A DNA stretch of 62,935 bases, the filler included, from Rhabdomonas costata (Eukaryota), in the NCBI GenBank assembly GCA_019059605.1. It is 51 parts of 51 records of this genome, joined end to end, with 100 filler letters (N's around TTAATTAATTAA, not from the genome) between each part and the next. Parts side by side here need not be neighbours in the genome. Positions count along the whole stretch, not along the records: positions 28,434 to 29,569 come from JAHMHO010026836.1; positions 29,670 to 30,805 come from JAHMHO010026837.1; 49 more parts are not named here. One strand, written 5' to 3'. Under the pieces are notes generated by a model. That model searched no databases. It saw only the letters and a program-made list of their open reading frames with translations, and was not told where the DNA came from. A program made the translations under genes and the position numbers. The number at the start of each line of letters is the position of its first letter. Within the stretch, counting starts at the first letter, position 1. Positions 8,652 through 50,004 of the stretch are shown in pieces.

Positions 8652-9787
8652 GCCCGGTCGTAGATAACTTTTCCCTCCTTGAACGTTCTCACTATCTGGA
8701 TTTCGCTGATTTGGTCGGGTGCGACATTGAGGGGATTCCGGTCAAGCATAACAAGGTCAGCCAACTTTCCGATCTCCAGGCTGCCTTTAGTCTTCTCCTC
8801 TTTAAGCTCGTGCGCGGCGTGGATGGTCACTGCCTTCAGAGCGTCGTAGACTGACACCCGCTGGTCAGGCCCGATGACACGGCCGGAGCGAGTGGTGCGG
8901 TTTACTCCAGCACTGACCAAGAGCATACTGGACGGAGTGGCAGAGATTGGCGCATCGTGGTTGAAGGTGAAGGGCAAGCCTCTCGACACAAGCCACTGGA
9001 TTGGCATGGCATCCCTGGCTCGGTCCTCGCCCCACAGATTCACTGCAGTGTCCCCACCTGAAACAAGGCTTGGAGTGGTGAATGATGGGATCCCGCGAAG
9101 TTTCCCCAGCTCATCCACCTGGTCCGCTCTGAGACAGGACGCATGGGCGAACACAGGGCGATGGTCCCACATTCCATGCTTCTTTATCACCTTGTGGAAG
9201 GCCTTCAAGGCCTGGTCGGCGGCCGCATCCCCATTTATGTTCAGATGAATCTGGAGATTGCTCGTCCAGAACTGCTCAAAGCCCCGGTCCAGAACCTCAT
9301 CAGAGATTTGTTGGACTCCAGAGTACTCACCCTCCTGCCCTGTGGGGTTGTGCGCATAGGGTTGGGTCATCCACGCATTTTCAAGGCACCCGTCAAGCCA
9401 GAACTTCACACCCCCTAGTCTGACGCGATTGATGTACCTCTTGTCCAGGTCAGGGTGAAGGGCAAGCAGCCTACGGGAGGTGGCACTTGCCCCAGAGTCG
9501 ACCGCCTGTGTCGCTGTTTCTGCAACCGCGCAGACATACAAGTCCAGGGGAAGGAGGTTTTTGTTGATTGCATTCACCACAATGTCCACATCCTCCGCAT
9601 CGAGCCCCATCCCGCACTCCATGGCAGTGGTGTGTCCATGACTTGTCCACAGGTGACTGCTTTGCTGAACTACACGGTCAGCCAACGCTCCTGCGAATGG
9701 CGGCCGCTTAGCTTGGACAATGCTGAGCGCCGATTGCTCCATTGGCCCGGTGAGCGTTTTGGTATCAGGGCCACGAGCAAACCACAC
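8652..9787 (-). CDS. Amidohydrolase-3 / YtcJ-like metal-dependent hydrolase (partial, intronless)
   Basis: Open across the whole contig; motifs GVKFWLDG, NGDAAAD, DHRPVFAH, HDAP, ALKAVTIHAA, KGSLEIGKLADLVMLDRNPL, TFKEGKVIY. Confidence 0.92.
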
Positions 9788-11558: not shown

Positions 11559-13087
11559 GTCCGAAGGGAAAAGGAGGAAAGACGGGTGGCAGGGGTGGGG
11601 GTGATAATGCTCCGCTACGCTCCCCGCTTTCTGCGCGCTTAATTGATGGGGATGAGCGGCACATTGACCGGACATTTCAGGAGTCCTAGTACACCACGAA
11701 ATATGAGCCGAACAGCCACCCTAGCTCGAGTTCTGGTGTTAATGTTACTTTCTTTGTACGGTCCGGCCAGGCCCGGGTTTCGGTTTTCAAGTTGAGTGAA
11801 GTGCATGTAAAATGCTTGGCGGTGTGCTCTTGGTTTCTGTTTCAACCGAGATTACCCACCCGATTATGGTATACACGTGTTAACTGGAGTTTTTTTCGAG
11901 GAGTGTGTGACGTGCTTTCTTCCACTTTTTAATGGAACGCAAACTTCCAGAGCATATCTAGAGTTCAGGAGTGCCTCCACAGCAGGGTGGAAAAAGGAGA
12001 CATTATCTTCCAGAAAGGGGAACTTTCGGGGGGCTGATTCGGGAGGAGGACATATAATTCAGGATCACCTGGAATTGGCCGACCCTGATTGAACCCTGAC
12101 CGCTCCTTATCGCGATTGGTATGTCAGCACGGACCATCCCACTTGTGCTGGTGTACTGCGGACGATGCTTTGGGAGGCGGCCCCACTTTTCTAGTGATTT
12201 CCCAACGTCAACAAGTCAAAACGTCAAGCGTTTTACTTGCACTTCACTCAACTTGAAAACCAACANNNNNNNNNNNNNNNNNNNNNNNNNNNNNNNNNNN
12301 NNNNNNNNNTTAATTAATTAANNNNNNNNNNNNNNNNNNNNNNNNNNNNNNNNNNNNNNNNNNNNGGTGGGGAGGGGGGCGACCTCTGAACAGTGAAATT
12401 CGAGGTCACCGGGAGGCAAATAAAGGGATGTTTTGAAAGAAATAAAACACCTACGGAGATATTAATATGTGACATTTACGATGTATCTTGATACACCTTG
12501 TAACTAACGGTATAAATGCAACACTGTGCATGTGTTGGGAAGGGAGCAACAAACACATGTGCTGAGGAAAATAATATAACTAAAATGACTAAAAACAGAA
12601 AACCAACCAAATCCAACGCGAGACAATTACTGGGGCGCAGCTGGCGTTCCAGCAAAAAATGCAGTGTTCGGACTTTGGGTTTTAGCAAGGCTGGAAGGTT
12701 TCCATCTCACCTCCCCTGTAAAAATTGAGCTTGGTGGAGCGGATGGCGATAGGCGGTGCTGTTTGCTGGATAGATGGTTGGAAGAAAGCGATCCAAAAGA
12801 ACCTTTTTTCTCAAACATGTTGAATCGAGAGTATGGGAAAGAGGTGGAACGTAAGGGCGACCCCCACGTCGCCGACTGTTTCTTAAACTGCGGTTCTAGC
12901 AGTGTCCTTCCGGTGGAGTGCCAGCGTGCGAGGATACAGGAGCGGCAGCGTGGTGCCACCATGTTCTTTTAGACAGACAGTGTGGTTCAGTCTTACTTTG
13001 CTGAATCACAGCTGAATCAGAAACAGTCGTTCGGGTGCGCTGGCACACTTTTCACAGAAGGAATATTTGTTTCATTTCAGCTGTCAG

Positions 13088-13702: not shown

Positions 13703-14606
13703 ATGGCTGTGGTAGCCAAACCAGGACCGGCAAAATTTGGCCCCCAGCGCATTCCCGCTGAAATTTTGGAAGATGCCGAGCTGAACCGCTGCATCGCCAA
13801 GCTCCCGCAGAACTACAACTTTGAGATTCACAAGACGATTTTTCGGATCAGGCAGGTCCAACCGAGAGAGAGATTGTGCCTGTGTATGTATCGGTGTCAT
13901 CTGAGTTGGTTACAAAGCGAACGCAATTGACGTAACAGCTTCTGCGGACAGGCAGACGAAGCCATACCCTGGAGGGCCTTGTGCCCAACATTGTGCCCTT
14001 GTTGGTTCAAAAAAAGCGCGACGACGTAATCTGAAAATTCCTCTTATATTGTGCTCATTTTCAACCCCAGCTTTTTTGGTTCCCCTGTCTCTCCAGTTCT
14101 GCAGGTATTCCCATTACCTCATTGGCTGAGACAGCACTGTGCATCTTTCACTAGGGTTAGCTGGCGAGGCTGTAGCAATGCACTTTGGACTGGGGGTATT
14201 CTGCGGGTGAACCGTTTCCGTACCTGGCCATCTCCTGCAGCCACTAGACGCAAAACTCTCGTGCAGTGTCTCCATCTCCGCGTCAACTTGGCCCATGTCG
14301 TCTCAGGTCGTTTTGGAGACCACCGTTCGCCGACCGCTGTAGGCTCCAGGGCAGCGTGTCCGCATGTCAAAGTTTTTGCAAGTGGCGTGCGTGTGTCTCA
14401 GGCTGGAGCGAAGCGCGTTGCGCTGCAGTTTCCGGAGGGGTTGCAGCTGTTTGCGCTGCCCATCAGTGACATTCTGAACCACTTCAGTGGAGCCACAGAA
14501 ACCGTGGTGCTGGGCGATGTGACGTACGGCGCATGCTGCGTGGACGACTTCACCGCAGAGGCCCTGGGATGCGACTTCCTGGTGCACTACGGGCATAGCT
14601 GTCTAG
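13703..14606 (+). CDS. DPH1: Diphthamide biosynthesis protein 1; exons 13703-13855 and 14402-14606 (partial)
   Basis: IPAEILED...[32 protein letters not shown]...[32 protein letters not shown]; phase-0 GT-AG intron 13856-14401. Confidence 0.96.
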
Positions 14607-14724
14607 GTCCTCCGGGAAAACGCGTGCCTTGCGGGATGGGAGTGGGGCGGGGGCTGCAGCAATGCACTTTGGACTGGGGGTATTCTGCGGGTGAACCGTT
14701 TCCGTACCTGGCCATCTCCTGCAG
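14174..14724 (+). repeat. Identical 67-bp direct repeat in two successive DPH1 introns (14174-14240, 14658-14724)
   Basis: AGCAATGCACTTTGGACTGGGGGTATTCTGCGGGTGAACCGTTTCCGTACCTGGCCATCTCCTGCAG occurs twice. Confidence 0.92.
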
Positions 14725-15284
14725 AATACCACCCAACNNNNNNNNNNNNNNNNNNNNNNNNNNNNNNNNNNNNNNNNNNNNTTAATTAATTAANNNNNNN
14801 NNNNNNNNNNNNNNNNNNNNNNNNNNNNNNNNNNNNNGTGTTGGGTGTGGTTGGGTGGGTTTGTCATTTGCCATCCAGGGAGCTGCTTGGTTGGTCATCA
14901 TTGGTGGTGGGTAATATTCTTCGCTGCACTTCAAATGTTAAAAGCGTCCATCAAAAGAGCGTGCCGAGCAGCGAAAACTGTTGAGAAATGAAAATTGAAC
15001 TAATTCCAATTTGAATGTCGAAAAGTTTTCCTCATGTGAAGCAGGCAAAGTCGCGATTTGGTTTGCTTGCGTCCACTTTAAGTGCGCATATGACAGATGT
15101 CAGGTGTGATGTTTACAGAAGAGTTTTTTTGGCTGGCGAAAAGCATCCGCCCCTTCTCGTCTCCGTCGTAGTTGCTCATCCTACTTGCTTGAACCCATCT
15201 CGGAGCCCGCATATGCCGCGCAGCCGATACACCGGGAAACAGTGCGACAAATGGCACGGATTTCCCTGGTTTCCTTCCTTCCAG

Positions 15285-15490
15285 GAGGAGGCATCGTGTG
15301 ATTCCGCTGCTTGTGGAACTCTTCCGCGACGTCGGGGCTCTGTCCGGGTTTGGGCTGGACGAGGACACCCTGTTCCGGTTCCTGGTGTGCGTAATGAAGC
15401 TGTACCGCGCCGTGCCCTACCACAACTTCTTCCACGCCGTGGACGTGGCACAGTTCGTGTACCTCTTCATGAAGTTCATCGAAAACACAG
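15285..15490 (+). CDS. Exon of class I cyclic-nucleotide phosphodiesterase catalytic domain
   Basis: LFRFLVCVMKLYRAVPYHNFFHAVDVAQFVY contains the YHN-x-x-HA-x-DV-x-Q signature; AG/GT bounded. Confidence 0.92.
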
Positions 15491-17743
15491 GTGTGCATGT
15501 GTGTGTGTTTCAGCGTACTTGCCCTCACCTCGACCCCGTCGAGTTGTCCAGTCAACCATCCGCATCGACCACGCAAAAGCAAGAAGATGTGCGAGACAGG
15601 AAGACGCATCGGCCGCCGGACAAGTGGACTTCATCAGACGTCCGTGGCTGTCAGTCGGCTTCTGGCGATGCTTCCCTTCTTTTTATTTTGCCTCGTTCTG
15701 CTATCGTTTGTATCACCCCCGGATCCAGAATAGCCCTCCCCACCACCGCGCGCGCACACACACACACCTACACAGACTCCAATGCGACGAGGGCTGTATC
15801 ATAACCACGACCCAAGACACAAACACGGAAGAGGAGCCAAGCATCGATCCAGAGTACCAACATTTGAAAAAGCACCACCAGCCCAGAGAGACACAGCGGA
15901 CCCAGTACCGCTTTTTTCTGGTACTTTGGATTCAGCAAAGCCCCTTGGTGTGTCTTAAAAGAAACCCCCCACCNNNNNNNNNNNNNNNNNNNNNNNNNNN
16001 NNNNNNNNNNNNNNNNNTTAATTAATTAANNNNNNNNNNNNNNNNNNNNNNNNNNNNNNNNNNNNNNNNNNNNTTTTGTTTTTCAGATCAGTGAAAAATG
16101 ATTAAGGTGTCGCTTCTTCCAAATGTACCCCTTTCCAACTTTTCCGCGCTCCCAACCTCCCAGCGCTGCTCTGGGGACTGCCCGTTCCTGATTGTCCTTT
16201 TACGCTTGAGGCGGGAAGTTCGCCGTGTCCTCGGGCGTCACACGTGATTCTGCTGTTTGTGCATTTTTTCCAAAGTGCTACGTCCTCACGGTTTGGCAGC
16301 TGCTTTGCGTTTTTGCTGTGTTTTTTCGTTATTGCGCAGTGCAGTGCAGTGCAACTGTGGTCCAGTCGCCCTGCACTGCAGCCTGGGCTGCTGCAGCTCC
16401 CTCCGCGCGCGTGCTTTTGTGCTGGTGCGTGGGTGGGTGCAAAGCGCGGGCTTCTCGCCAGGCCTTCGCCTGTCTGAACACGTACATTATCAGGCAGTGT
16501 GCCGTCGGGCTGAGCTTTTGTGGTCATCTCTGCCCAACGCTTTGGTTTCTTTCCTGGCTGCGTTGTTCTTTGCGGTTTCATCGCTCAGGCTTTTTTTGTG
16601 GTTGTGTCATGACTTGAAAAACAAGCGTTGGACCACCTATTTCACCGAGTAGTGACCGCACTCATGACTACTCTGCTCCCCTACCTATTCCACCCAACAT
16701 ATTGTTTCGTTCTTTTGTTGCCCTCCCCCCTCCCTTGGATGCAAACTTGGGGTCCTTCCCCGGGGTGCCGAACCCTTGAACGACTTGGGAGCAAAGAGAA
16801 GTTTCGATGGAAACGTAAGCCCTATGAGGAAACTGCCTAAAGACCTCAGGGTGCACTCATTCGTGGTGGCGGAGGTTCAGGATTTTCGTTCCCCGCACTG
16901 CCCCCATCCCGTTAAAATCGCGACAGGGTCCCGACTGTCTGGATATCTCGTGTTTCGTCTCCACAGCGTTGTGTTTTGGTTTTCTATTTTGATTCATCGT
17001 GCCTTTTTTCTATATGTCCAGAAGCTCTATGGCCTTCAGGAATACCGTTGCTTCCCCATCCGAGTCCCGGTCAGTGGATACCTCCGACAATCTGTGTGTA
17101 ATTATGGACAGGTATTTATGAGGGGGCGGGGATGGGGAAGCAACGGTATTCCTGAAGGCCATAGAGCTTCTGGACATATAGAAAAAAGGCACGATGAATC
17201 AAAACACAANNNNNNNNNNNNNNNNNNNNNNNNNNNNNNNNNNNNNNNNNNNNTTAATTAATTAANNNNNNNNNNNNNNNNNNNNNNNNNNNNNNNNNNN
17301 NNNNNNNNNGTGGGTTTTTGTGCGGGCCACTTTCTTCCTCTTTGTGTGTCTTCGCAGCCCTCGGCCGCCACGCAATTGTTTCGTTTTCCTCCTCTCTTTC
17401 TCTTCACTTCTCTTCCCCATTCTCCAGCTATCACCCTTCCTCCGTCCCCACTACCCTTTCCTGTTTATCCCCCTTTGCGACACCACGCCCTCTTTTGTCC
17501 CCTTCTTCGCAACCTCCGATTTTTCTTCCCAGTTCAGTTTTTGTTTTTTGCGTCCCCCCTTCACATCTTTTCGCTTCCTTGTTACAGAGTGTCTGTTTGT
17601 TGCTGAACTCCGCTGCAAATACTACTGTGCCCATATAGAACGTCATAGGGCAAACACGTGGCAATCGCACCTTTTCTAGGAGTATATTGGAGGACTGCAG
17701 TACATTGGGGCGAACAGGGGGTCGGTTCTGATCCAGAGCGCAC

Positions 17744-26870: not shown

Positions 26871-27657
26871 GCCTAATTCTTATTTTTTTATTTGGAAAAG
26901 AACTGCCCCACATAAACGTACAGGAGGGGTACAGTGGCCCAAGATTTTCACGTAGCTCACCAAGACGTTTACGCATCTGTGGCAAGGCTGTTCTTTCGTG
27001 TGCGGCTTTGAGATCTTCTGTCTGTGAACCCGCCCCGTTCCCCTTTAGGCGGGTAACAATGGGCCAGGAAGGGAATGGGACGGGTTCACACACAAAANNN
27101 NNNNNNNNNNNNNNNNNNNNNNNNNNNNNNNNNNNNNNNNNTTAATTAATTAANNNNNNNNNNNNNNNNNNNNNNNNNNNNNNNNNNNNNNNNNNNNGTG
27201 TGTGCAACTCAAAGGAAAGTTCAACAGGTTAAAACAGGAGGTGCGCTCAGTTGTCTTCCGAAATTCTTCATGTTGACAAGACTTCGTCATTTCTCAATTT
27301 GGAATTTCGGAAGACAACTGAGCGCACCTCCTGTTTTAACCTGTTGAACTTTCCTTTGAGTTGCACGTACCTCTTCCACTTTTACCCCGGTCCAGCTTCA
27401 GCTACATCTTCCTCTCCAGAGGCCCAGCCTGTTGCTTAAATAAATGGAGCTCAGAGAATGCTGGACCATATTAACAAGCTTTCCCTGCGTAATGCTGCAC
27501 AAAGGCTGCAGGGAGTAGAGTTCCAATTCCGTTCTATCATCCGATGATCCAGAAAAGAATCGTCTTTGACTGCAACCGGGCATGGAGCAAGCAGGAGCAC
27601 TGTCTTCAGCACTGCTTGAACAAGACACTTGGGCAAGAGAGTGCCCAAGTGTCCCAG

Positions 27658-28433: not shown

Positions 28434-29435
28434 TGTGGTTTGTGTTACAATCATTGAACCAGCATATGTATCATTTATATTATCTGGTACAGCATTTCTT
28501 TCAATTACTACCCATAAATCATTTTTGATCTTGTGTGAATGGAAAAATATTATTCACATTTATCATTATTGTATCACATAATATTGTATTGTTGCCATTT
28601 TCAGCTATTGTTATTGATTTAGATATTATGTTTGTCGTTGTATCTTGTGCTGGCGCATCAGATGCATTTAAAAATACTGATTTCCCGAATACTGTAAAAT
28701 TATAATATATCTGCAATTCAATATTTCCACTTGTTGCATTATCTACCATGTAATATATCGTCGCTTTTATTGGAAAAGATATATCAAGATCATATGGTAA
28801 TGTAAAATTTGTTACTCCTTTATGTGCTCCACCACTTACAAATTTATTGTTCTTTTTTGCTATACTTACTTTTATTTTTACTTTTCTTATCTATAAATAC
28901 TTCTTGATTTACAGCTGCACAATTTGATGGTTCTATATCAACAAGACTTAATGGTATGTAACCAACTGGTCTTGATTTACCGTAGTATTCAACAAATCCA
29001 TCATGATTTACTCTACAATTATTTGTATGTATTTTCACATATTTAGCTTTAGGTATATTTGATAATTGTTCCATGTATCCTCTTCTAAATTGTTATTTGT
29101 TAAACAAATCGTATTTACATAATCATATTTTCCTTCACCAATAGATAATGTTACTGGTTGTACTGCATTTCCAAGACGTACATCTCCTAAAATAGCATGG
29201 TAGGTTTTTAAATCTTTATAAATAGTTGAACATAAACTAAAATTTACACCGTTTGGATTATTTATTTTTATCATCTAAATCACATGCTGTTGTATTTAAA
29301 TGAGCGTCTGTTGCCAATATATATCATAATTATGTGATGAAGTTATATTTGCACTATTTGCATTGAATGTTGATTTCGATCCCGTTGGTCCTACAACTAA
29401 TGTATTATCATTGTCTTCTGTTTGGAAATTATTTT
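28434..29435 (-). pseudogene. Multiply frameshifted large AT-rich gene resembling giant-virus virion/fibre-type proteins
   Basis: Protein-like text continues across at least five frame changes: NNFQTEDNDNTLVVGPTG / LATDAHLNTTACDL / IKINNPNGV...GEGKYDYVNTICLTNNNLEEDTW / KIHTNNCRVNHDGFVEYYGKSRP / KFVSGG...FTLPYDLDISFPI / LWVVIERNAVPDNINDTYAGSM. Confidence 0.65.
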
Positions 29436-30292
29436 GTGCTGTCTCGCAAAGAGACGTTGCTTCACGGTAAGCACGCAGAGCTTCAACGTAAGAGGCGTTC
29501 GCACTATCTCTTTCACCTGTGAAGTCAGCTCCTCGTTGCGAGACAGCACAAAATAATTTCCAACAAAACNNNNNNNNNNNNNNNNNNNNNNNNNNNNNNN
29601 NNNNNNNNNNNNNTTAATTAATTAANNNNNNNNNNNNNNNNNNNNNNNNNNNNNNNNNNNNNNNNNNNNGGTTGTGGTGAGGGATGGCAAGCCCCGCCTT
29701 GAAAAGAATGATCCGCCGCTTGCGGCGCCAAGGCCGTAAGGGGAAATGCAAAAGATTATGTCCTTGGCATTGGCAGAGTCTTCGACTGTCAGTGGTCTTT
29801 TTTGAAATAGAACTCCCTGCCAGAGTGTATATTCCTCCTGACTTGAAGTCAACCTGAGGGGGGTGCGGTTTTTCCCTTCATAGTTCTTTCAACTTGGGTT
29901 TTACGTCACAGATTTGTCTCCGTGCTCTTTCTGGGGCAGCCGGACCTACAGTGCAGCTCTCCGGAACACGTCAGGACTTTCGGTTCTGCCGCCCTGGAGG
30001 TCCAACCCCAACCCAACTAACAATTACGGCATATCCCTGTTAACGCGGGTGTGTTGGGTCTGGTTTGAATGCTGATCCTCTACTGCTTTCGTTTAGCCGT
30101 TTACCCGCTAGCGCATCTCCTCTGCCACCAATACACTGCTCTTCTTCCATTGTCCTCCCACGGCATCGCCTCCCGGCTCATTCGATTGGTATTGTCGCTG
30201 TGTGCCTATCCGTCCTTTCTTCCCAAAACAAGCCGCGTTCCCTTGCGTGTCAACCATACTTTTCTTTCACCGTGTGGCCTTTCCGCCCTCAG

Positions 30293-30467
30293 ATCATTGG
30301 ACGCCACGAGGGAGAGGTGCTGCAGCTGCTGCAGGATGACAAGGGCCTGCACCTCATCGCAGTGTTTGGGCTGCAGAGCCAGACCACGCCCTCGGTGCCT
30401 GCGGTGCAGGCCGTGCTTGACCTTCTGGGGTGTCCCGAGGTGACGCTGAATCTGGCCTGCCGGATCG
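30293..30467 (+). CDS. Internal exon, unknown protein
   Basis: AG/GT-bounded GC3-rich IIGRHEGEVLQLLQDDKGLHLIAVFGLQSQ...LNLACRI. Confidence 0.6.
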
Positions 30468-32140
30468 GTATGGAATGAGTGTGTTTCACAAACCATTTCT
30501 GCGTTTCTTGCCGGTGCGAATGTGTTTTAGGGCCACGGGGTCACAAGCAGCACCAGTTTTTTTTCATCTGCAGGACTCATGTTTTCAGGTGCCGGATATT
30601 CAACAGGACTTCCCCTTGTGAGCGTGCATGTCCTTTCCTTCCCTCACCGCAGGGCTCGGCAGCATCAGCGGTGTAAAACCAACACATCAAATGACGTCCC
30701 TCTGTATTTCGTCGCAGGGGTGGCCACGGGGAACGCGGCTTGTTTTGAGAAGAAAGGACGGATAGGCACACAGCGACAATACCAATCGAATGAGCCGGGA
30801 GGCGANNNNNNNNNNNNNNNNNNNNNNNNNNNNNNNNNNNNNNNNNNNNTTAATTAATTAANNNNNNNNNNNNNNNNNNNNNNNNNNNNNNNNNNNNNNN
30901 NNNNNGGTTGGTGGGGACGGGAAGGCGGCGCTGGCCGTCTCCCTTTCCATCAGTGAGGTGGAGGTGCCACTGATGGACGTTCAGCTCGCCTTTCTGCGAC
31001 GCGTCCTGGAGGACAACCTGGGCCGCCGCCGCCTTCCCGTCCCCGGCACCACTAATACGGTCCCCTGCAGGTTGCTTCCGTCCCTGTATGGGTTGTATTT
31101 TTTCATTGTTAGCAACTGGTCTGGTTACCGTCTATCCTAGAGTGTTCCAAATCCCGTTCAAAACCGTGCGGGGTGCTGTTCAATTGATGTGCTCTGGGTT
31201 AGGGAAGGAAACATGTTGTGTTGTCGTTGGCGGTTGCTTTATTCTGTTGTTTGGGATTGCTAGTGTGAGGCTTCACGCCTTATTTTTCGCTCCAGCGCGC
31301 AGGTAGCAGCGGTAACTCCAGGTAGCAGCGGTAGCAGCGGTAACTCTTCTCACCACGAGTGACAGGGTTGCTTTTTGTTGAGGGTGATCTCTGAATGTGC
31401 AGCGATGGCAATGCGGTGTCATGCGGGACCTCCTCGCCATCCACGAGTCCCGTGGCTCCTTCTTCCCGGCTGAGGCCGGTGCCCCACCCCCCTCTGTGAC
31501 GGCCAGCCCAGGAGGCCTGCGGCCCGCACGCGCGCCAGGCTTACCCTCCCCAAGGCTCTACCCCGTGGCTCTCTCCGCTTCCTCAGCAAGCCCGGACCGG
31601 TGTGTTTCCCCAATGGATCCTTTTGCGTGTTCTTCAGCGTGCTTCCGCCCTTCCCTAACCTTTTGCTTCAGCCATACTAATGGCAAAATGAGAGCTGTGG
31701 GTTGGAGCCGGGGAGGGTCAGCCTACTATACTAAAAAGAGAAAAAAAATTGCCGTTTGCCCTGTTACCTGCGGGGGCCGGGGAGGTTGCCACTTCCCCAA
31801 ACGGTTGCAGTTCGATGTCGTTGTGGGCCCACACTGACTTCCTGTCCAACACAAGGTACGAGGTGCACTTCCCGTGCTTCCGGCTGCGATTGCTGTCCAC
31901 CTCCTCCTCTGGCTCTTCCTCCTCCGTGGCCCCCACTCTGCTGCCTCATTCCTTGCCTGTGGCTTCCCTCGTGATGAGCGACCTCAGCTTGCGCCACCAA
32001 GGTTGTTATGCTGTAATCCCTACCAACAACAACCTTCTTTNNNNNNNNNNNNNNNNNNNNNNNNNNNNNNNNNNNNNNNNNNNNTTAATTAATTAANNNN
32101 NNNNNNNNNNNNNNNNNNNNNNNNNNNNNNNNNNNNNNNN

Positions 32141-32422: not shown

Positions 32423-33843
32423 CTGCCCAAAAAGGTTAGGTTGGAAACGAGATGCGATTGTTGAGTGCAATAGAAAATTGGGGAAGTGGGTTATGGTTCC
32501 ACTGGTATTGGTTCCCAACGGTGACGAAAACGGACCACAATTCCTGTTGGTATTTCAACTTGACAAAGATCGCATAACTGACGCGAGAGCCTGAGAAATG
32601 ATTTTTGTTGCTGCTACCAAGGGTAGTTAGCTAGTCCAAGTGTTCGTCGAAACGTCTGCTTGCTAACTAACGTCAAAACTGAAGCTGGCTAAGAGCAAAG
32701 CTGTAGGACAGCATTAGTTTAGCGGTGGCTGGGGGGGGGGTATTAGAGACTTTCATTGTTTCAATATGAAAAGTGGTAACAATACTTACGGTTCACAGTG
32801 GCAACCGTTCACCCCCCACCAACAACAACAACTTAGGCTGCAACAACGACTGTTGTGACTGTGAAGGGTGCCTGAATACTCTGAAAGTCCTTCTCGCATA
32901 GAAAAGAGATGGTCTCGATGAGAGTGCCTAGAATAGCAGAGGCTTCACTGTGAAAGACTTTGGAGAGTCTGTTCTCCGTTAACTCATGACGGTTATTTCG
33001 CCCCCGGTGGCCCTTAGACTGGTTGCCGCTCGCTTGCAGACGCGAGCTTTCAGCGAATTTGTGTGCAGCGATGTGAAACCCTGTATCTTTCACGCGTCAT
33101 CGTCCTCCGCCACCTTTCAGAACAACAAATGCACGCAGTAATCTGGAACGCTCGGTGATAAAACCCGTTAAAAGTCCTCTTCCAAAAGTGACATCAAAGG
33201 ATCCCGTGCCACACAGAACGCTCTACAAAACCGGGGAAAAACGGATTCAGAAGCGAAAAGACAAACCCAACACACANNNNNNNNNNNNNNNNNNNNNNNN
33301 NNNNNNNNNNNNNNNNNNNNTTAATTAATTAANNNNNNNNNNNNNNNNNNNNNNNNNNNNNNNNNNNNNNNNNNNNGTGGTTTGTTGATGAGACCATACA
33401 GACCTATTAAAAATGGTCGGAGAGAAAAAAGAGCTGATATCGTGTGTATACAGAATTGTTTTGAAATTACTACTTATATTAAGACCAGGAAGACCTCCTA
33501 AAATGTTCGGAGAGATAGAGAGAGCGGCTATGATCTGTTCGCAGTTTTTTTTGAATGTGCGGCATGGTATGGATATATATATATAAATAATAATATAAAT
33601 AATAATATAAATATATTTATAAATTTAATATAAATATTACATATACGTAGTAGTAGTATATATACGTAGTAGTAGTATAGTAATATGTGAGCACCGTCCC
33701 ATTTTTACGAAGCCTGCGGCTTCTTCAAACTGGGACGTTGCGCACATATTACGTTCACTTTCAATCGCCGCCGCGCCGCCACCATTAGACTATCTGTTTG
33801 AGAGAGAGCCGCTAAACTGACTGTTCTGTACAAGTTAAATATT

Positions 33844-33931
33844 ACCCAGCCCATCCATAATATCCAGCACATAATACCACCCAGTCCATCCATAATATCC
33901 AGCACATAATACCACCCAGTCCAGCCATAAT
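33844..33931. repeat. 35-bp tandem repeat x about 2.5
   Basis: Unit ACCCAG(C/T)CCATCCATAATATCCAGCACATAATACC starting at 33844, 33879 and 33914. Confidence 0.92.
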
Positions 33932-34016
33932 CTATAGTGCATACTAGGGTATTTTTGTATAATTTATTAAAAAAATTATATAATAATTATATAAATGGAA
34001 CCATTAGAAGTGTGGA

Positions 34017-34290
34017 TATATATAAATAATAATTATAATATATAATTATAATATATAATTATAATATATAATTATAATATATATTAAAAATAAAATTTTT
34101 TTAATAAAAATTATTATATATATAATTATAATATATAATTAATTATTATATTAATTATAATTATATAATTATAATTATATTTAATAATTAATAATTATAT
34201 TTTTAATTATATTTAATAATTAATATATAATTATAATTATATTAATTATTAACTATATAATTATATAATTAATTATATATATAATTTATA
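34017..34290. repeat. Near-pure A/T low-complexity tract
   Basis: About 270 nt of TATAAT/TAATTA variants with almost no G or C. Confidence 0.95.
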
Positions 34291-35585
34291 TGAATATTTA
34301 CATGTACGAAAAAATGTCAAATTAATGAATATTTTTTAGCATGATAAATTGTCAAAGTAATGAATATTTAATATTGAATTCGCGAAAAAAACAATATGAA
34401 TATTTCGCGGATTAAATTTTAGTGTGAAAAAGTAAAAAACTTAGGTAGTGCGACCAGGCCGGCCATTACGTCGAAGACGTAATACTATGTTGTAGCATGT
34501 CTAATATGCAAANNNNNNNNNNNNNNNNNNNNNNNNNNNNNNNNNNNNNNNNNNNNTTAATTAATTAANNNNNNNNNNNNNNNNNNNNNNNNNNNNNNNN
34601 NNNNNNNNNNNNGGTTGTGTGGCGGTCTTTCTGTGCCCTGTGCCCGATGCACTTTCAGTTTTTGGCATTCAATCTTTTATTTCGTCATTTGGTTCCAGAA
34701 CATCGGAGCATTCCGCGGCGCGGGCACTGCTGATCAATGAAAGATGTAGTTTGTATGGATTGCAGCGCGGCATTTTTCCCGTTTTTACGAAGTGCGCGCT
34801 TCCTGTGCGCAGAGCGTGTCCCCCGTCTCGCGGACCGACCCCAACTTGAGCCCTGGGGCACGATCGTGTGTTGTTTTACTGCTGTGTCTCTCTCTTTCTC
34901 AGTTGGGAAAGCTCAGGACTGTGGAAGGATTGTCGGACGACAAAACAGTTTGCAACAGAAAACGTAAGGTCAACTAAGTGACAGGGGGATGAGCGTGAGA
35001 AGAGGCCGTGTGAAGGGTTTGGAAAGAGTGAACGTGAACAGCATGGGAATGAACGAGAGCGAGGGAATCGGCGTGCGGAGGGATGGCGAAAGGACGGGAA
35101 AGAGAATGAAGAGGAAGAGGGAGCAACGGCTGTGACGAAGTGTGAACGGTCAAAAATTGGAAGGAAGAGGGATGATGCTACGGGATGTCGATTCGCACAG
35201 AGTTCCTGGGTATGACGGCGAAATCTAAGAGGGAGGGAGAGAGGGAGGGAAGAGGGGGGATTGAGTTCTATGCAGCTCTTGCTGGTTGCCGTCCCCATTG
35301 CTGTGTGCCTGTCTATTTTGTCATCTTTGGACTCGCCTGGTTTTACCCAGCTCGCCAAGTTCGGAAGAGGACGACTGCCTGTGAGACACTTCTCCAATTG
35401 ACCCCCCCCCCCATGCTGTTCCCTGGAATTATTTAACTGTGTTTCTCCCACTCAGGGAAGCCCGCAAGCTTTCGCCTCGCTCGTACAAAACTATGCTGGA
35501 AAGGCTAGCATCGGTGCCTTGTTCTCTCCTCCTTCTCTTCCTCTATTCTCCTTCCTTTGTGCTGGTACTCGTTTTGCAGTGGGCA

Positions 35586-35746: not shown

Positions 35747-38123
35747 AANNNNNNNNNNNNNNNNNNNNNNNNNNNNNNNNNNNNNNNNNNNNTTAATTAA
35801 TTAANNNNNNNNNNNNNNNNNNNNNNNNNNNNNNNNNNNNNNNNNNNNACGGTCTCCGCCCTGTTTTCCGACCTCCCGCGGTACCCCCGAGGAGCAGAGA
35901 CAGACTGGAGAACGGTGCTGTTTTGGCGGAACTTTCGTCTTGCAAGCTGGTTTTTTTGTTGAAAATTTCATGAAATTGTCCTGACTGGTGACATCAAGAT
36001 GTGTACACCAGTTTTGTTGTATTGTGGGGTCTCCTCTGGGCCCATGCTGGCTGCAGGGCGTCGTTCGTGTGAACGTCCATGCCTGCGGGAAATGACTTAT
36101 TTCTGCTTGAATGCACCTTTTTTTTTGGCGGTTTGGTTTTTTGTGGAGCGTCCGAGGCTTGAATGGCGTTGTTGTTCGGCTGCCTGTCATTTGTCTCCAT
36201 TCAAACGTTTCAAACGTGTTGCGGATAAATGTCTGGGACGGTGCCGCAGGTGATCCACTCTGCAAACCCAGCCTTCTTTGACTACATGGCTGGGTTCACT
36301 CATTACGATGAGAAGATCCGATTCCTGGTTCTTCGACGTGCGCGTGTAATTTTCTTATGGGTGTTATCCCGCATTTTGCTTTTGAGAAATCATCCTGATC
36401 GAGCGAAGCATGGAGAGGCTTTTTGTCACTTTAAAGAGTGAATCTGAATTTGCAATGATACGAATGGCCTCAAGCGCGCGAAAAAATAAATGTCTGGTTT
36501 CCGTTGTTCAAACCACCGTTGCGGAGAACTGGAGAAGGTACGATGTCACATACAGCATCGCATCTTAACTTTGGCTGCATACCGCAGGTCAAATGTGGTA
36601 AGCCAAAGTCCCGCGCCTACTCACAGCACAGTCCTGAACCTGTTTTGTTGCGACCTGTTGGACCACCACCCGCAGATGCGGCTCTTGTGCGTCACCCTAA
36701 CTAGTAACCTGTCCATGAGGACACCTTCAACCCAACCCCCTGTGAGGCCAAGAACCCCTCCTGGAGTATAAGTGCATCGTCACTTAACCTCCTAAGAGGC
36801 CAAGCACCTCTCCTGTCTCGCCCATTGCCCACAACCTCCAGCACCTCGGAACTTGGGCCGCTGAGTTCCGCGGCTGACGGCATCCTCGATCGCTGAAAAA
36901 AAACTATTTTATTACCCCACCCGAATGTCATACGTCCTTTGAGGTTCCCGCATTTGAGGTGGCATTGACTTTTCACCCACACCCNNNNNNNNNNNNNNNN
37001 NNNNNNNNNNNNNNNNNNNNNNNNNNNNTTAATTAATTAANNNNNNNNNNNNNNNNNNNNNNNNNNNNNNNNNNNNNNNNNNNNGGTGTTTGTTATAGTT
37101 CTTTTAGCCTTTAGAAGCAATACAAAGAAGCAATAAATCAGTGCTGGTATATCGGCGTGTAGGTCGGCGGACGGTGCACCAGCCTTCCAAGCATTCTAAA
37201 GGCTAAAAGAACTATAAAAAACACCCCAAAATGGCCCTTAAGTGGCCTCTCGCGTGGCTCAAAACAAAAACATTTCGGCCCACTCCAGTGCCAGCGTTCT
37301 CCTGAGCCCTGCCCTTAGGTACTTTAGGTATGCTAATCAGGCCCGGCCGAAAGCTCAGGCTCAGTGTGCAGGCCTGCAACCGCCCGAAAAGCACCCCAGG
37401 CCCTTGAAAAGTATTTTTTTTAATTTCTAAATCGAAAAGGGCCCAAAAGGGACCTTGAAGGGGCGATATTTCGGCGTATAGAAGGTGTCCGAGGCGGGGA
37501 AGCGGCCAACCAACTCATCTCTGGAGTACTACCATCCCACCAAAGATGATCCCCAACCTTTCCCTCTAGCTTCAGACGCCCATGTTCGGTCTCCGGTCCA
37601 GTTCGGTTTAGTCGGGGAGTGAATGGCAAATGTCACTCAGCGAATAGGGGGACATTCGGCATTCACTTCCGGAGGCCGGCTGAACAGGCTAGATAGGCCC
37701 ATGTGGTAGGACCCCCAGAGCAGCGGTAATCAACGAACTGTAATGCTAGCACGCAAAATCCAATTTTTTTCCCCACCCTCTTAGCTTCAGTCAGAACCTA
37801 GAAACAGGGAACAGGTATTGGTTGACTTGCGCCTAAGACAGCACCCTATTCCTTTTAAGTGCCCGTATTGCCTTCTCACAGCTGGAATGCCCCAAATCGT
37901 TTTTTCGAATTCCTATACATCCCCAACAAAACTAGAAAGTTGTATGTGTACACTTTGCAGACGCAGTTCCATGATTGCAGGTCGAAGACTAGACTCAGTC
38001 TCTCTGCGATCCCACCACCACCCGCAGCATTTTGGGACTGAGAGTGGCGCCAAAGCTATGAAGCTTCCATTGTGCCTGTTGTGTGGATTGGTCAGCTTTT
38101 CGGGGCATGTGCTGATCTCTCAG

Positions 38124-44100: not shown

Positions 44101-45765
44101 TTGTGGAGCTCAGAAACTGTGTTTGGAGACTGATTCATACCATATCAAAGAAAACGTGGGCGTCAGAGGCGGTTAAATGCCTGCTGGTGATGGCGTGATG
44201 CTGTTTTTCCGCACAGATGCATATATTTTGTGAAATACGTAGTTACACCACATGGCAGGTGAACGTGTGGCATCATCAATTTTTGCCTCTCATGAATATG
44301 AGAATGCTTCTACTAAAAGCTTGCGCAGTTTGACCTTCCTACAGTCAATATGTAAGCTAACATTTCTTGAAAGCAAGGCATATGCTCCGCCTTTTGTTAT
44401 NNNNNNNNNNNNNNNNNNNNNNNNNNNNNNNNNNNNNNNNNNNNTTAATTAATTAANNNNNNNNNNNNNNNNNNNNNNNNNNNNNNNNNNNNNNNNNNNN
44501 TTGTTGTTTGGGGACGTAGCTGACCAATCCGGTTGATTAATGTCCAGATAATTCTTGATGATCGAAAAATCGGCAGAATGTAGGCAACCGCTTAACTGGA
44601 TAAAACTGCACGTTGAGGCGCCAACATATGTAGCCAACTGTCTTCTTGTGGATCAATTGATTAGGCCATCAAATCAAACCTGATTAAGCCATCAAAGTGG
44701 GCGCTGTTTTCCCCTCAGGGTTAAGTGATTTGCCGCTCATATGCGCCACTTCACGGCCAATTAATGGTATCAATTCCGTCTGGATGGTGCCTTTTGCGGC
44801 AATTCCAGCCGAAAAATAGCCCACGTGTTGGTGGACTGAGCAGGTTTTATGGCAAAATGGCGTGATATTTGCCAATAAATGTCGGGACAAGACCTTTCGG
44901 AGGCAGTTCCTGAGGACAATTGCTCACAGGATGTGCTGAATGCACTTTTCTTGTACCAGATTTGCTCTCAGGACCATCAGGCTCTGAAAAAATACCGCAC
45001 GATGAAAGCACCCAGAATGTCCAAATCCTTACCTGGACCATCATGTCTGTGCTGCTCATCCTCATCTAGAAATGCAGTCTGCTTTCTCGTATAAGAATAT
45101 TGTTTTCATCATGGTTTGTTGCCAAGGGGGTGGAGGGACACCTCGGGCGAGGCAACTCCGAAGCCCGAGTTCACCACACACCTCAACAGGGTGGCCTACA
45201 GCTTGAAATCTTAGGCCCGCAGCAGCATCCAAGAAGCCACAGGTAGCGGCGCCACGGCCACACAAACAATCAGGAGCCATCTGGGTGTGGCTGGTGGCCA
45301 AACGGGGCACTATCTGCCCAAGACAAACTCAGCAGCGTACACAAAAAGGATCACATTTAAACCTGAAAAATATTTTTGTAAAAGTTTAGTGTCGTAAAGC
45401 CACTCCTTCCCAATCCGGTTCGAACGACGTTATCTATGTCAAGAACTATGAATGTTGTGGATGTCAAGAACTGGCTACCGTGATGGCTGTTTCGCACAGA
45501 AATACGGAAACAAAGACCGAGTGATTAGGACCGCTGCCGCAAATCCTTATCAAGAATAAAATCCACACAGCTTTGCCAAACGGATGAAGCCGCTCTTCAA
45601 TCCAGGCTGCCGCTGAGGAGCACATTGCAAACAAACANNNNNNNNNNNNNNNNNNNNNNNNNNNNNNNNNNNNNNNNNNNNTTAATTAATTAANNNNNNN
45701 NNNNNNNNNNNNNNNNNNNNNNNNNNNNNNNNNNNNNGGGGTGTGTTTGGGGGTGTGTGGGTGGG

Positions 45766-46538
45766 CTGCAGGCCCGGGCGAGGGCGATGAGGGAGCTGTT
45801 TTCGCACTTCAGCTCGCTTGTGGTGCTGTTCTCGGCGGCCTCGGAGGTTCCGGCGTTCCGGCTGGCCACGTTCTCGCTTCTGGTGGTGGTGCCCCCGGCC
45901 ACCCCGAGCGCTGGCCTGAGGAGAAGGCCGCGCTGACGGAGCTACTCCCCGCGGCGCCCGAGAACATGCGGTTGGTGGGCTTTGTGGCGATGGATGAGCT
46001 GCAGAAGGCGGAGGAGTTCTTTGGCTTCCCGATGCTCCCGAAGCCTCCGACGGTGTCCCAGATGCAGGAGTTCCTGGAGCACGCCCGGGGCGAGACTTCA
46101 GAGGTCGTCTCGGTTTCGGCGACCTCTGGTGTCGGGGTTTCGGATCCGTCCTCGAGTTCCTCCTCGCGTCCTCCCCGGCGAGTTCTTGTTGCCGAGGACA
46201 TCATGCTGAACCGGATGATGTTTGTGCAGATGCTGAAGCACTGGAACGTCGACGCGGACACCGCAGAGAACGGGCTTGTGGCGGTGTCGATGTGCACGAG
46301 CCAGGAGTACGACGCGGTGTTCATGGACGCGCACATGCCGTTGTGCGACGGGGTGGAGGCGACTCGTCGGATTCGGCAGTTGGCGGGGTACCGCCACGTG
46401 CCGATCATTGCGCTTACGGCGGCGACGGCGGAGGAGCACCGCGCGGCGTACCGAGAGTGCGGGATGAGCCACTTTCTGGGGGAGCCTGTGACGCTGAGCT
46501 CGCTGCGGGCGGTTCTGGAGCAAGCCTCGGTGCTGTAA
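45766..46538 (+). CDS. C-terminus of a hybrid two-component sensor with receiver domain; apparent frameshift near 45893
   Basis: RVLVAEDIMLNRM...AENGLVAV...YDAVFMDAHMPLCDGVEATRRIR...VPIIALTA...GMSHFLGEPV, preceded by a pseudo-receiver ending LPKPPTVSQMQEFL. Confidence 0.9.
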
Positions 46539-49445: not shown

Positions 49446-49772
49446 TTTTTGTTGTTCATATATAAAATACATGAGTATTGTATATATGAACAACATAAAG
49501 CAATAAAATACGTTTATACATATGGTAAACTTTTACAATTAATTAGCGAATTTAAAAAAAGTCATACTATAGAAAAAAAAGTAAATATAATTATATATAT
49601 ACTAAATGTGATTACTGAAAATAATGGAGTATTTTTGCATGAAAATACAAATTTAGAAAATGTTTTAAGTAAGAAAATAAAAGAATTTATAGTAGATGAT
49701 TACACAGGTAAAATAAAAAAATATATTAAAAATAATTTTTTTCTCAACAAATATATGAATAAAAGTTTTTAA
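49446..49772 (+). CDS. 3' part of AT-rich hypothetical protein, giant-virus-like
   Basis: Intronless K/N/I/Y-rich open frame of over 100 codons in very AT-rich DNA. Confidence 0.7.
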   Translation, partial: FLLFIYKIHEYCIYEQHKAIKYVYTYGKLLQLISEFKKSHTIEKKVNIIIYILNVITENNGVFLHENTNLENVLSKKIKEFIVDDYTGKIKKYIKNNFFLNKYMNKSF

Positions 49773-50004
49773 ATATGTTATATAAATAAGAATTTAATAA
49801 ATGAAATATTTATTTCCACATCTCCGATGTTCTTGTACAATATCATATACAATAAATAGGTAATTTATTAATTAAATTTAAAAGATAATTCATTTAACAT
49901 GATATAATTGTTTATTTATATTCTTTTTATAAAAGAATGTAAATAAAATTAAATATCCATTGTATATATTTTTACTATGAAATAAAATTTATTATAGTAA
50001 ATAT

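What the first reader, a model, noticed from the sequence alone, without database searches (positions are those of the whole stretch)
28434..29569. Shattered giant-virus-type structural gene: candidate endogenous giant virus in a euglenid-like host
Seen: the three short ORFs in the track are pieces of one long AT-rich minus-strand gene broken by at least five frame changes, several in A/T runs. Composition turns more GC-rich near 29436. Recalled, not searched: the blocks GEG...LTNNNLE..TW, KIHTN...NHDGFVEYYGKSRP, LPYDLDISFPI and W...R...DTY.G resemble large beta-rich proteins of Mimiviridae-related viruses. Inference: a replicating virus would not tolerate this damage, so together with contigs 1-1136 and 49446-50581 this may be a decaying integrated giant virus.
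Basis: partly seen in the sequence, partly recalled or inferred. Interest (0 to 1): 0.8.

Follow-up and report, generated by a model that had tools for sequence, protein, structure and literature searches.

The report
Broken giant-virus tailspike-like gene fragment
This 1.1-kb stand-alone contig is a damaged piece of a giant-virus gene for a phage-tailspike-like protein, but nothing here shows that it is integrated in the host genome, and the assembly it comes from is rich in amplification artefacts.

Summary
The finding is one whole 1136-nt contig (30.5% GC) among 51 unrelated contigs of about 1136 nt. Its minus strand carries residues ~324-768 of a ~785-aa viral protein family, in collinear pieces separated by five frame changes. 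Three lie on A/T runs of 5, one in a (TA)4 repeat, and one is a junction where about 124 codons are missing.

The family has no Pfam, PHROG or NCBIfam name. It is a right-handed beta-helix followed by a conserved ~410-aa double beta-sandwich module. It splits into a tailed-phage clade and a giant-virus clade, and the contig falls in the giant-virus clade.

Integration is not shown. Most contigs begin with G/T-only and end with A/C-only bases, the mark of K10NN-primed whole-genome amplification, so this contig is a single amplicon. Its GC-rich right end is a fold-back of a kind seen in 9 of 51 contigs.

The small frameshifts are probably real, because 0 of 23 comparable runs are shifted in five control ORFs. 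All covered invariant residues are kept and there is no in-frame stop. Reads and the rest of the genome were not available.

Verdict: a dead giant-virus gene copy, possibly endogenous. This is a known kind of thing.

The parts
28434..28446 (.). G/T-only contig start (13 nt), primer-derived end of the amplicon
   Evidence: 38 of 51 contigs start with at least 10 of 12 G/T, against 3.9% of interior windows. Primer with a K10NN tail found in paper passages.
28434..28529 (-). Gene piece 6 (frame -3): family residues ~740-768, the block LW..ER....NDTY.G. The contig end cuts off the last ~17 residues.
   Evidence: tblastn; alignment (R749, D758, T759, G762 kept).
28522..28526 (.). Frame change 5, on a T5 (sense A5) run
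28531..28869 (-). Gene piece 5 (frame -2): family residues ~626-740, the second beta-sandwich (CBM-like), with the block LP.D.D.SFPIK
   Evidence: phmmer (25 hits); tblastn; fold.
28870..28888 (.). Frame change 4, in the A4/A5/A4 stretch (T5 at 28875-28879)
28886..29065 (-). Gene piece 4 (frame -1): family residues ~561-625, the block YVKIHTNN...NHDGFVEYYGKSRP
   Evidence: tblastn; K574, G586, G592, R595 kept.
29066..29073 (.). Deletion junction with a frame change: about 124 family codons (P0008 ~437-560) absent. This is the core of the first beta-sandwich, with invariant E496, W503, W555, R557, R559.
   Evidence: All 19 full-length relatives have this segment.
29077..29265 (-). Gene piece 3 (frame -2): family residues ~376-437, the blocks INNPN and GEGKY...LTNNNLE..TW
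   Evidence: G401, G406, G417, G419 kept.
29265..29269 (.). Frame change 2, on a T5 (sense A5) run; compensates frame change 1
29267..29320 (-). Gene piece 2 (frame -1, about 18 codons) between the two compensating shifts
   Evidence: (frame 0: ILATDAHLNTTACDLDDK) compared with the family rows.
29317..29324 (.). Frame change 1, in a (TA)4 repeat
   Evidence: Sequence; frames; family alignment.
29320..29433 (-). Gene piece 1 (frame -2): family residues ~324-355, the last turns of the beta-helix
   Evidence: tblastn.
29422..29453 (.). Left arm of the inverted repeat. The AT-rich to GC-rich junction lies inside it at about 29438/29439.
29454..29531 (.). GC-rich 78-nt loop of unknown origin
   Evidence: No match in phages, plasmids, genome contigs or metagenome contigs.
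29532..29563 (.). Right arm of the inverted repeat (a fold-back copy)
   Evidence: Terminal fold-backs in 9 of 51 contigs.
29560..29569 (.). A/C-only contig end (10 nt), primer-derived
   Evidence: 35 of 51 contigs end with at least 10 of 12 A/C.

Best explanation
The contig is a single whole-genome-amplification amplicon. It carries the 3' part (family residues ~324-768 of ~785) of a giant-virus-clade member of an unnamed viral protein family.

Intact members are built as an N-terminal variable part, a right-handed parallel beta-helix like phage tailspikes and depolymerases, and a conserved ~410-aa pair of beta-sandwiches. By analogy they are virion-surface proteins that bind or cut glycans.

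This copy cannot make that protein:
- it lacks the first ~320 residues;
- it has lost about 124 codons from the core of the first sandwich;
- it carries four small frameshifts at short A/T or TA repeats.

I take the small frameshifts to be real in the template DNA. That makes it a dead copy whose substitutions have not yet accumulated, most likely a young viral remnant lying in the DNA of the sampled eukaryote.

Shown: homology, clade, lesions, amplicon nature. Inferred: function, reality of the indels, endogenous location.

Sub-odds: viral family member 0.97; giant-virus clade 0.85; small indels real 0.65; integrated in a eukaryotic genome 0.45.
For: Homology:
- phmmer of one 107-aa piece against 1.84 billion proteins gave 25 hits at E <= 1e-3. 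Most are proteins of ~720-790 aa matched near their C-terminus.
- 19 of 19 full-length relatives align collinearly by tblastn.

Clade:
- The tree has 41 rows. A 100* split separates 17 rows, which include all 3 records with a large terminase, from 24 rows. The 24 include L002 (Pox_VLTF3 59 bits, Pox_A32 33 bits nearby), L001 (collagen-repeat neighbours, 22-30% GC) and the contig.
- P0008 is 47% identical to an uncharacterised protein of Mimivirus LCMiAC01.
- A 97%-like sequence lies on a 369,604-bp contig.

Fold:
- Full-length model, pLDDT 88: tailspikes and depolymerases at E 1e-8 to 1e-4.
- C-terminal module model, pLDDT 72: first sandwich Z 15.9 to chain M of the LME-1 phage portal-tail complex; second sandwich CBM35/CBM6-like at Z 7-8.5.
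- The phage-clade gene in L004 sits among head-closure, portal, protease, scaffold and major-head genes.

Indels probably real:
- 3 of the contig's 7 runs of at least 5 carry a shift. 0 of 23 such runs (up to A10) do in five open ORFs of other contigs of the same assembly. My Fisher-type count from these numbers gives p about 0.009.

Dead copy:
- The deletion removes five invariant residues.

A junction to GC-rich DNA exists at about 29439.
Against: - No read support could be checked and no genome is held.
- The assembly is artefact-prone. It has K10NN primer ends and terminal fold-backs in 9 of 51 contigs. The deletion and the GC-rich junction could therefore both be template-switch chimeras.
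- All 14 covered invariant columns and 12 of 13 covered near-invariant columns are kept, and there is no in-frame stop. Five indels with no visible substitution damage is unusual for neutral decay, and is what technical indels would give.
- The control ORFs were chosen because they are open, and may have higher coverage.
- Giant viruses themselves carry some pseudogenes, so a broken gene does not prove endogenisation.
- The 27-nt probe from the GC-rich loop matched nothing, so its host origin is unshown.
Confidence: 0.45

Rival explanations
1. The gene is intact in nature. The contig comes from a free or infecting giant virus, or viral DNA taken up by the cell, sampled at very low copy. All lesions (small indels, deletion, GC-rich fold-back end) were made by amplification, sequencing or assembly.
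For: - The library is K10NN-primed whole-genome amplification.
- 9 of 51 contigs carry terminal fold-backs.
- All covered invariant residues are kept and there is no in-frame stop.
- The shifts sit on slippage-prone repeats.
Against: - 0 of 23 runs of at least 5, including A7-A10, are shifted in five other ORFs of the same assembly, against 3 of 7 here.
- In-vitro slippage should hit the longer runs first.
- Four independent small indels in one 1.1-kb amplicon is far above ordinary polymerase error. This rests on established knowledge and was not measured here.
Confidence: 0.27
2. The lesions are real, but the copy lies in a replicating giant-virus genome, or that of an associated virophage or polinton-like virus, as a pseudogene of a dispensable surface protein. 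It is not in host chromosomes.
For: - The contig shows no demonstrable host flank.
- The family occurs on very different viral records. Members of the phage-side clade lie on 21-kb (inverted terminal repeats, 100% complete) and 36-kb (98% complete) records.
- Loss of surface-fibre genes in cultured mimivirus is recalled from the literature and was not looked up here.
Against: - Five lesions plus a 5' truncation in one gene is heavy for a compact replicating genome.
- The gene runs into GC-rich DNA at about 29439, which an AT-rich viral genome would not be expected to hold.
Confidence: 0.18
3. The contig derives from a tailed phage or a bacterium in the non-axenic sample.
For: - The family has a tailed-phage clade. 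L003, L004 and L010 lie on records with a Terminase_6N hit, and L004 lies in a head/portal module.
- Bacterial-type contigs are present in the window: an unbroken 378-aa amidohydrolase, a response regulator and a PBP_like_2 protein.
Against: - The contig lies on the other side of a 100* split from all three terminase-bearing records.
- It has 35-39% identity to giant-virus-clade members. The IMG/VR loci that fall in the phage clade are 23-30% identical to the family query.
- No PHROG hit for the contig's pieces and no match in 50,697 phage records beyond the beta-helix of P0008.
Confidence: 0.04

Closest known systems
Uncharacterized protein A0A481Z030 of 'Mimivirus LCMiAC01' (BFVD entry) and its unnamed metagenomic relatives (P0008, P0013, P0024 ...; IMG/VR loci L001, L002)
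   Same: Same family. The alignment is collinear over residues ~324-768 at 35-39% identity, and all covered invariant residues are kept. The contig lies within this clade.
   Different: Those are intact ~720-790-aa ORFs. The contig lacks the first ~320 residues and about 124 internal codons, and is frame-shifted four more times.
Phage tailspike / capsule depolymerase proteins (K2-2 TSP 8IQE, Sf6 tailspike 2VBK, CBA120 TSP2/4, Depo32 7VZ3) and pectin methylesterase 1GQ8
   Same: The N-terminal half of intact family members models as a right-handed parallel beta-helix that matches these (Foldseek E 1.4e-8 to 1.6e-4). There is a weak profile match to pectinesterase (E 0.036).
   Different: Sequence identity is 9-14%, and catalytic residues were not examined. 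The contig keeps only the last turns of the helix. The conserved C-terminal module is not that of these tailspikes.
Chain M (817 aa) of the Legionella phage LME-1 portal-tail complex, 9EFK; baseplate chains of contractile injection systems (9GTP, 7B5H, 7AEB, 6J0N)
   Same: The first beta-sandwich of the conserved module matches 9EFK chain M at Z 15.9, rmsd 2.3 A over 144 residues, and the injection-system chains at Z 7.8-10.9.
   Different: Identity is 15% and there is no sequence-level hit. I did not establish which of the entry's proteins chain M is; the paper's passages list portal, adaptor, nozzle and tail fibre. In the contig this domain is the one gutted by the deletion.
Giant endogenous viral elements (GEVEs), e.g. 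the eight eroded elements of Euglena gracilis (PMC12455990, abstract read)
   Same: Eroded giant-virus-derived coding DNA in an assembly of a eukaryote.
   Different: Per the abstract, GEVEs carry viral marker genes and are integrated in the host genome, and those of E. gracilis are Asfuvirales. Here there is one 1.1-kb amplicon, no marker gene, no proven host flank, and a Mimiviridae-like affinity.
Bodo saltans virus, a Mimiviridae member infecting a kinetoplastid (passage of PMC8061765)
   Same: It shows that Mimiviridae infect Euglenozoa, so a free-virus source is plausible if the host is euglenozoan.
   Different: No close match was found. The best relatives of the contig anywhere are 35-39% identical.

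Membership tests
Unnamed viral beta-helix + double beta-sandwich family (LCMiAC01 A0A481Z030-like; alignments A1, A2, A3) | Significant collinear sequence similarity over the conserved ~410-aa C-terminal module | tested here: met
   25 hits at E <= 1e-3; 19 of 19 relatives, group E down to 1.7e-31.
Unnamed viral beta-helix + double beta-sandwich family (LCMiAC01 A0A481Z030-like; alignments A1, A2, A3) | Family-invariant residues present | tested here: met
   14 of 14 covered invariant columns kept (one of them, E143, is a mis-placed residue); 12 of 13 covered near-invariant columns kept. Six invariant columns are not covered.
Unnamed viral beta-helix + double beta-sandwich family (LCMiAC01 A0A481Z030-like; alignments A1, A2, A3) | Complete module, including the first-sandwich core (E496, W503, W555, R557, R559), in one open frame | tested here: not met
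   about 124 codons absent and five frame changes. It is a gene remnant, not a functional member.
Unnamed viral beta-helix + double beta-sandwich family (LCMiAC01 A0A481Z030-like; alignments A1, A2, A3) | N-terminal right-handed beta-helix | not testable with these tools
   The contig turns into foreign GC-rich DNA at family residue ~320. The rest of the assembly is not held.
Giant-virus (Nucleocytoviricota) origin | Groups with homologues that lie next to hallmark genes of that phylum, apart from phage homologues | tested here: met
   100* split; the contig is on the side of L002; Pox_VLTF3 and Pox_A32 beside L002; other side: terminase, portal, major head; LCMiAC01.
Endogenous viral element / GEVE | Physical continuity with host chromosomal DNA | tested here: inconclusive
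   Only about 106 nt of GC-rich DNA, inside a fold-back. Fold-backs occur in 9 of 51 contigs. The origin of the piece is unknown.
Endogenous viral element / GEVE | Erosion (frameshifts, deletions) supported by reads | not testable with these tools
An internal control favours real indels.
Endogenous viral element / GEVE | Other viral genes (MCP, PolB, A32, VLTF3) in the same region or assembly | not testable with these tools
   No genome is held. Within the window, no other contig matches the family or the neighbours of L001 and L002.
Phage tailspike / depolymerase | Right-handed parallel beta-helix with a glycan-cleaving site; virion attachment | tested here: inconclusive
   Fold similarity holds for intact relatives only. 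The active site was not examined. A virion role is inferred from the gene's place in a phage structural module.

The most novel reading that the evidence does not exclude
The AT-to-GC junction at about 29439 is a true virus-host junction. On this reading a Mimiviridae-like (Imitervirales-type) tailspike-like gene fragment sits, recently inactivated, in the nuclear DNA of the sampled protist. It would also point to a past or ongoing mimivirid infection of that lineage.
Probability: 0.35. Interest if true: 0.45.

Novelty: new member of a known kind. Interest (0 to 1): 0.3.

Why it matters
If the copy is endogenous, it is a small footprint of a mimivirid-like virus in a protist lineage for which few virus-host links exist. 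The rest of the assembly should then be screened for hallmark genes.

As it stands, the main value is cautionary. The assembly is made of K10NN-primed amplicons with frequent fold-back chimeras, so composition breaks and odd contig ends in it should not be read as biology without reads.

There is also a side result that stands on its own. An unnamed ~410-aa double beta-sandwich module, with a phage-tail-like first domain, is shared by tailed phages and giant viruses. It sits in virion gene modules in the phages and beside collagen-repeat genes in one giant-virus-type locus.

Tried and rejected
Searches that gave nothing for the contig:
- Pfam and PHROGs on the four contig pieces: nothing, apart from one PHROG row at E 0.19.
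- Close relatives of three pieces in IMG/VR: none.
- Word-indexed search of piece P0002 among longer proteins: none.
- Rfam on the whole window: 0 matches.
- Pfam on 8 full-length relatives, PHROGs on 4 giant-virus-clade members and NCBIfam on 4: no family.
- PDB by sequence: only pectinesterase at E 0.036-0.16 for A1, and nothing for A3.

The GC-rich loop:
- blastn against phages and plasmids: no match.
- Exact 27-mer in genome contigs and metagenome contigs: 0.

Rows left out:
- P0007, the top row (E 1.8e-16, 12 short stretches in a 1674-aa tandem-repeat protein), was set aside as a repeat or composition match.
- P0019-P0021, and hits under 500 aa, were left out.
- L009, L016, L017, L019, L022-L024, P0007, P0019-P0021 and P0033-P0035 were left out of the tree.

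Readings considered and rejected:
- Another genetic code. The stops in the single long frame are many, and the homologous residues lie in other frames.
- A poxvirus-like hairpin telomere. The same kind of end occurs in 9 of 51 contigs.
- Transcriptional slippage or RNA editing as rescue. The runs are only A5, and a 124-codon deletion remains.
- A MITE insertion. The flanks are inverted, not direct.

The other AT-rich contigs:
- P0005 and P0006 (49446-50581): no IMG/VR relative for P0005, no significant Pfam family for either (one row, Glycogen_syn, E 0.053, below cut-off), and no word-indexed hit for P0005. The only lead is a weak Atlas match to Nucleocytoviricota clusters (0.92, 112 shared features).
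- Contig 1-1136: only sub-threshold zinc-finger rows.

- No whole genome is held.
Full report
WHAT THE WINDOW IS

The window is not a continuous locus. It is 51 separate contigs of 1134-1142 nt joined by N/TTAATTAATTAA spacers, so it looks like a length-sorted slice of a fragmented assembly. The finding, 28434-29569, is exactly one contig. Its GC is 30.5%, while 43 of the 51 contigs lie at 47.6-60.5%. No whole genome is held for the window. Nothing outside these 63 kb could therefore be examined for this organism.

THE OBSERVATION

It holds. The minus strand has four stop-to-stop open frames of at least 76 codons and the plus strand has none. Three or more on one strand appeared in 4 of 2000 shuffles.

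The pieces had no Pfam or PHROG family and no close IMG/VR relative. An exhaustive phmmer search of the 107-aa piece P0001 against 1.84 billion representatives gave 25 hits at E <= 1e-3. Most are proteins of ~720-790 aa matched at residues ~640-740. I set aside the top row, P0007, a 1674-aa tandem-repeat protein matched in 12 short stretches, as a composition match.

tblastn of 19 full-length relatives against the contig gave hits for 19 of 19. The hits are collinear. Family residues ~324-447 fall in frame -2, ~557-633 in frame -1, ~626-740 in frame -2 and ~740-768 in frame -3. Group E-values go down to 1.7e-31 and identity is 31-48% per piece.

Inside the first block the homologous residues run for about 18 codons in frame -1, between two compensating shifts.

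The five frame changes are:
- a (TA)4 repeat at 29317-29324;
- a T5 run at 29265-29269;
- a junction at 29066-29073 where about 124 codons present in all 19 relatives are missing;
- the A4/A5/A4 stretch at 28870-28888, which includes T5 at 28875-28879;
- a T5 run at 28522-28526.

The contig has only seven runs of at least 5. With three of the four small shifts falling on them, my rough estimate from interval lengths is p about 0.01.

WHAT THE GENE IS

Thirteen relatives align over ~785 columns at 45% mean column identity (A1). A scan of IMG/VR with that alignment gave 24 loci.

The C-terminal ~410 residues keep their length in 31 of 32 aligned sequences (379-437 residues; the exception, L007, has 593). 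The N-terminal part varies from 158 to 889 residues.

An AlphaFold model of P0008 with 32 sequences has mean pLDDT 88.4. It shows a right-handed beta-helix at about residues 100-370, followed by two beta-sandwiches.

Foldseek against the PDB returns phage tailspikes and capsule depolymerases: K2-2 TSP at E 1.4e-8, then Sf6, CBA120, Depo32 and phiAB6. It also returns pectin methylesterase. Against BFVD the first hit is a 784-aa 'Uncharacterized protein [Mimivirus LCMiAC01]' at 47% identity and E 8.4e-84. It is followed by phage tail fibres and tailspikes and a few giant-virus beta-helix proteins.

A separate model of the C-terminal module (15 sequences, pLDDT 72.4) was compared with 48,161 PDB representatives. 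The first sandwich matches chain M of the Legionella phage LME-1 portal-tail complex at Z 15.9, rmsd 2.3 A over 144 residues. It also matches baseplate chains of contractile injection systems at Z 7.8-10.9. The second sandwich resembles CBM35/CBM6-type carbohydrate-binding modules at Z 7-8.5, a range the tool itself calls common. Passages of PMC12407071 list portal, adaptor, nozzle and tail fibre in that entry. I did not establish which one chain M is.

No Pfam, PHROG or NCBIfam model names the giant-virus-clade members.

WHOSE GENE IT IS

The records behind L004 (224 kb) and L010 (347 kb), judged 91% and 94% complete, have no NCLDV capsid or A32 match. They do have a Terminase_6N match in 531-540-aa frames. 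L003's record has one too. In L004 the gene lies co-directionally among head-closure, portal (E 3e-116), prohead protease, scaffold and major-head PHROGs. These are tailed phages.

L002, in contrast, is full-length at E 5e-101 on an 89-kb contig. It lies with mixed-strand, spaced genes beside Pox_VLTF3 (59.4 bits, cut-off 25), Pox_A32 (33 bits, cut-off 22.8) and F-box/DUF4116 repeat proteins. L001 sits on a 200-kb contig at 22-30% GC, beside 780- and 2446-aa collagen-repeat proteins. One near-copy of P0008 is on a 369,604-bp contig.

The tree has 41 rows and used the quick method. The contig entered as a read-through with X at every break. A 100* split puts all three terminase-bearing records among 17 rows on one side. 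L002, L001, P0008 and the contig are among 24 rows on the other. The contig sits with P0024 and P0009 at 97*.

The caveat is that the family also has a phage branch.

WHY INTEGRATION IS NOT SHOWN

Of the 51 contigs, 38 start with at least 10 of 12 G/T and 35 end with at least 10 of 12 A/C. Only 3.9% of interior 12-mers do so. Several contigs begin with part of an 18-nt G/T motif. Passages of PMC10781638 and PMC6961581 give that motif as a universal whole-genome-amplification primer with a K10NN tail. This contig has both signatures: 13 G/T bases at 28434-28446 and 10 A/C bases at 29560-29569. It is therefore one amplicon, and its ends are primer sites.

The GC-rich right end is a fold-back. 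The arms are 29422-29453 and 29532-29563, at 97% complementarity, around a 78-nt loop. The AT-to-GC junction lies inside the arm. The junction therefore predates a snap-back on a 12-15-nt inverted repeat of the GC-rich piece. Nine of 51 contigs carry such terminal inverted duplications.

The hairpin is thus an artefact class of this assembly. The junction itself could be a true virus-host boundary or an earlier chimera. The loop matched nothing in phages, plasmids, 596 Gb of prokaryote contigs or the metagenome collection. The deletion junction could likewise be template switching.

ARE THE SMALL FRAMESHIFTS REAL?

In favour: in the same assembly, the two open ORFs of the 20%-GC contig 49446-50581 hold 15 runs of at least 5, up to A10. 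Three bacterial-type ORFs hold 8 more, including a 378-aa amidohydrolase that fills its contig. None of these 23 runs breaks a frame, against 3 of 7 here. My count from these numbers gives p about 0.009. In-vitro slippage or homopolymer miscalls should hit A7-A10 first.

Against: the controls were picked because they are open, and coverage may differ. All 14 covered invariant columns and 12 of 13 covered near-invariant columns are kept, with no in-frame stop. One of the 14, E143, is a mis-placed residue. Five indels with no visible substitution damage fits either a very young pseudogene or technical indels.

I put the small indels at 0.65 real.

THE OTHER AT-RICH CONTIGS

Contig 49446-50581 has two intact ORFs with no detectable relatives and only a weak Atlas lead to Nucleocytoviricota clusters. 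Contig 1-1136 has zinc-finger-like ORFs in different frames, with only sub-threshold Pfam rows. Contig 33377-34512 is a mosaic of GC-normal DNA and pure AT repeats.

No window contig other than the finding matches the family or the neighbours of L001 and L002. Shared low GC is the only link among them.

COMPARISON WITH WHAT IS KNOWN, AND VERDICT

Eroded giant-virus DNA in eukaryote genomes is well known. In Euglenozoa the abstract of PMC12455990 reports eight eroded Asfuvirales-type elements in Euglena gracilis. A passage of PMC8061765 notes the mimivirid Bodo saltans virus as the only documented DNA virus of kinetoplastids.

The present contig is at best a small new example with a Mimiviridae-like affinity. 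It fails the functional-member test of its family, because the module is incomplete and the frame is broken. It cannot be tested for the defining feature of an endogenous element, continuity with host DNA.

My best reading, at 0.45, is a dead giant-virus gene copy that probably lies in the sampled eukaryote's DNA. The rivals are an intact co-sampled virus with technical lesions (0.27), a pseudogene within a replicating viral genome (0.18) and a phage or bacterial source (0.04).

Interest is modest. The most useful outcomes are the identification of the family and the warning about amplification artefacts in this assembly.

Noticed in passing
whole window (all 51 contigs): 38 of 51 contigs start with at least 10 of 12 G/T and 35 of 51 end with at least 10 of 12 A/C. 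Several start with part of the universal primer of K10NN-type whole-genome amplification. The assembly therefore still carries primer-derived ends, and contig ends are priming sites.
   Followed up: yes
window 16987-17204, 27202-27366, 30166-30805, 54164-54289, 11782-12261, 30913-31044, 37093-37217, 57928-57988: Terminal inverted duplications (fold-backs) with exact arms of 17-75 nt in eight further contigs. This is the same artefact class as the right end of the finding.
   Followed up: partly
window 49446-50581: A 20%-GC contig with two unbroken same-strand ORFs (108 aa open at the 5' end, 200 aa open at the 3' end) separated by a ~210-nt spacer at 10-16% GC. No relative in IMG/VR, Pfam or the word-indexed protein search. 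There is only a weak Atlas lead to Nucleocytoviricota clusters.
   Followed up: partly
window 1-1136: A 28%-GC contig with cysteine-rich, zinc-finger-like ORFs in different frames, possibly also frame-shifted. Only sub-threshold FYVE, IBR and B-box rows were found.
   Followed up: partly
window 8654-9787, 45738-46535, 51093-51815: Bacterial-type genes: Amidohydro_3 filling a whole contig, a response-regulator receiver and PBP_like_2. The sample therefore holds bacterial DNA beside the eukaryote.
   Followed up: no
window 14030-14737 and 15193-15801: Diphthamide_syn and PDEase_I domains match only their first 59 and 19 profile positions and then break off within open frames. This is consistent with introns in host-type contigs. 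It was not examined further.
   Followed up: no
L001-L024 (IMG/VR), alignments A2 and A3: A conserved ~410-aa double beta-sandwich module behind variable N-termini is shared by tailed phages and giant viruses, with a 100* split between the two clades. It sits in a head/portal module in L004. Members of the phage-side clade also lie on a 21-kb record with inverted terminal repeats (100% complete) and a 36-kb record (98% complete). No Pfam, PHROG or NCBIfam model covers the module.
   Followed up: partly
L001:180-9974: Two collagen-triple-helix repeat proteins (780 and 2446 aa) lie directly upstream of the family gene in the closest IMG/VR locus, and a caspase-domain ORF lies downstream. This may be a surface-fibre gene cluster.
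   Followed up: no
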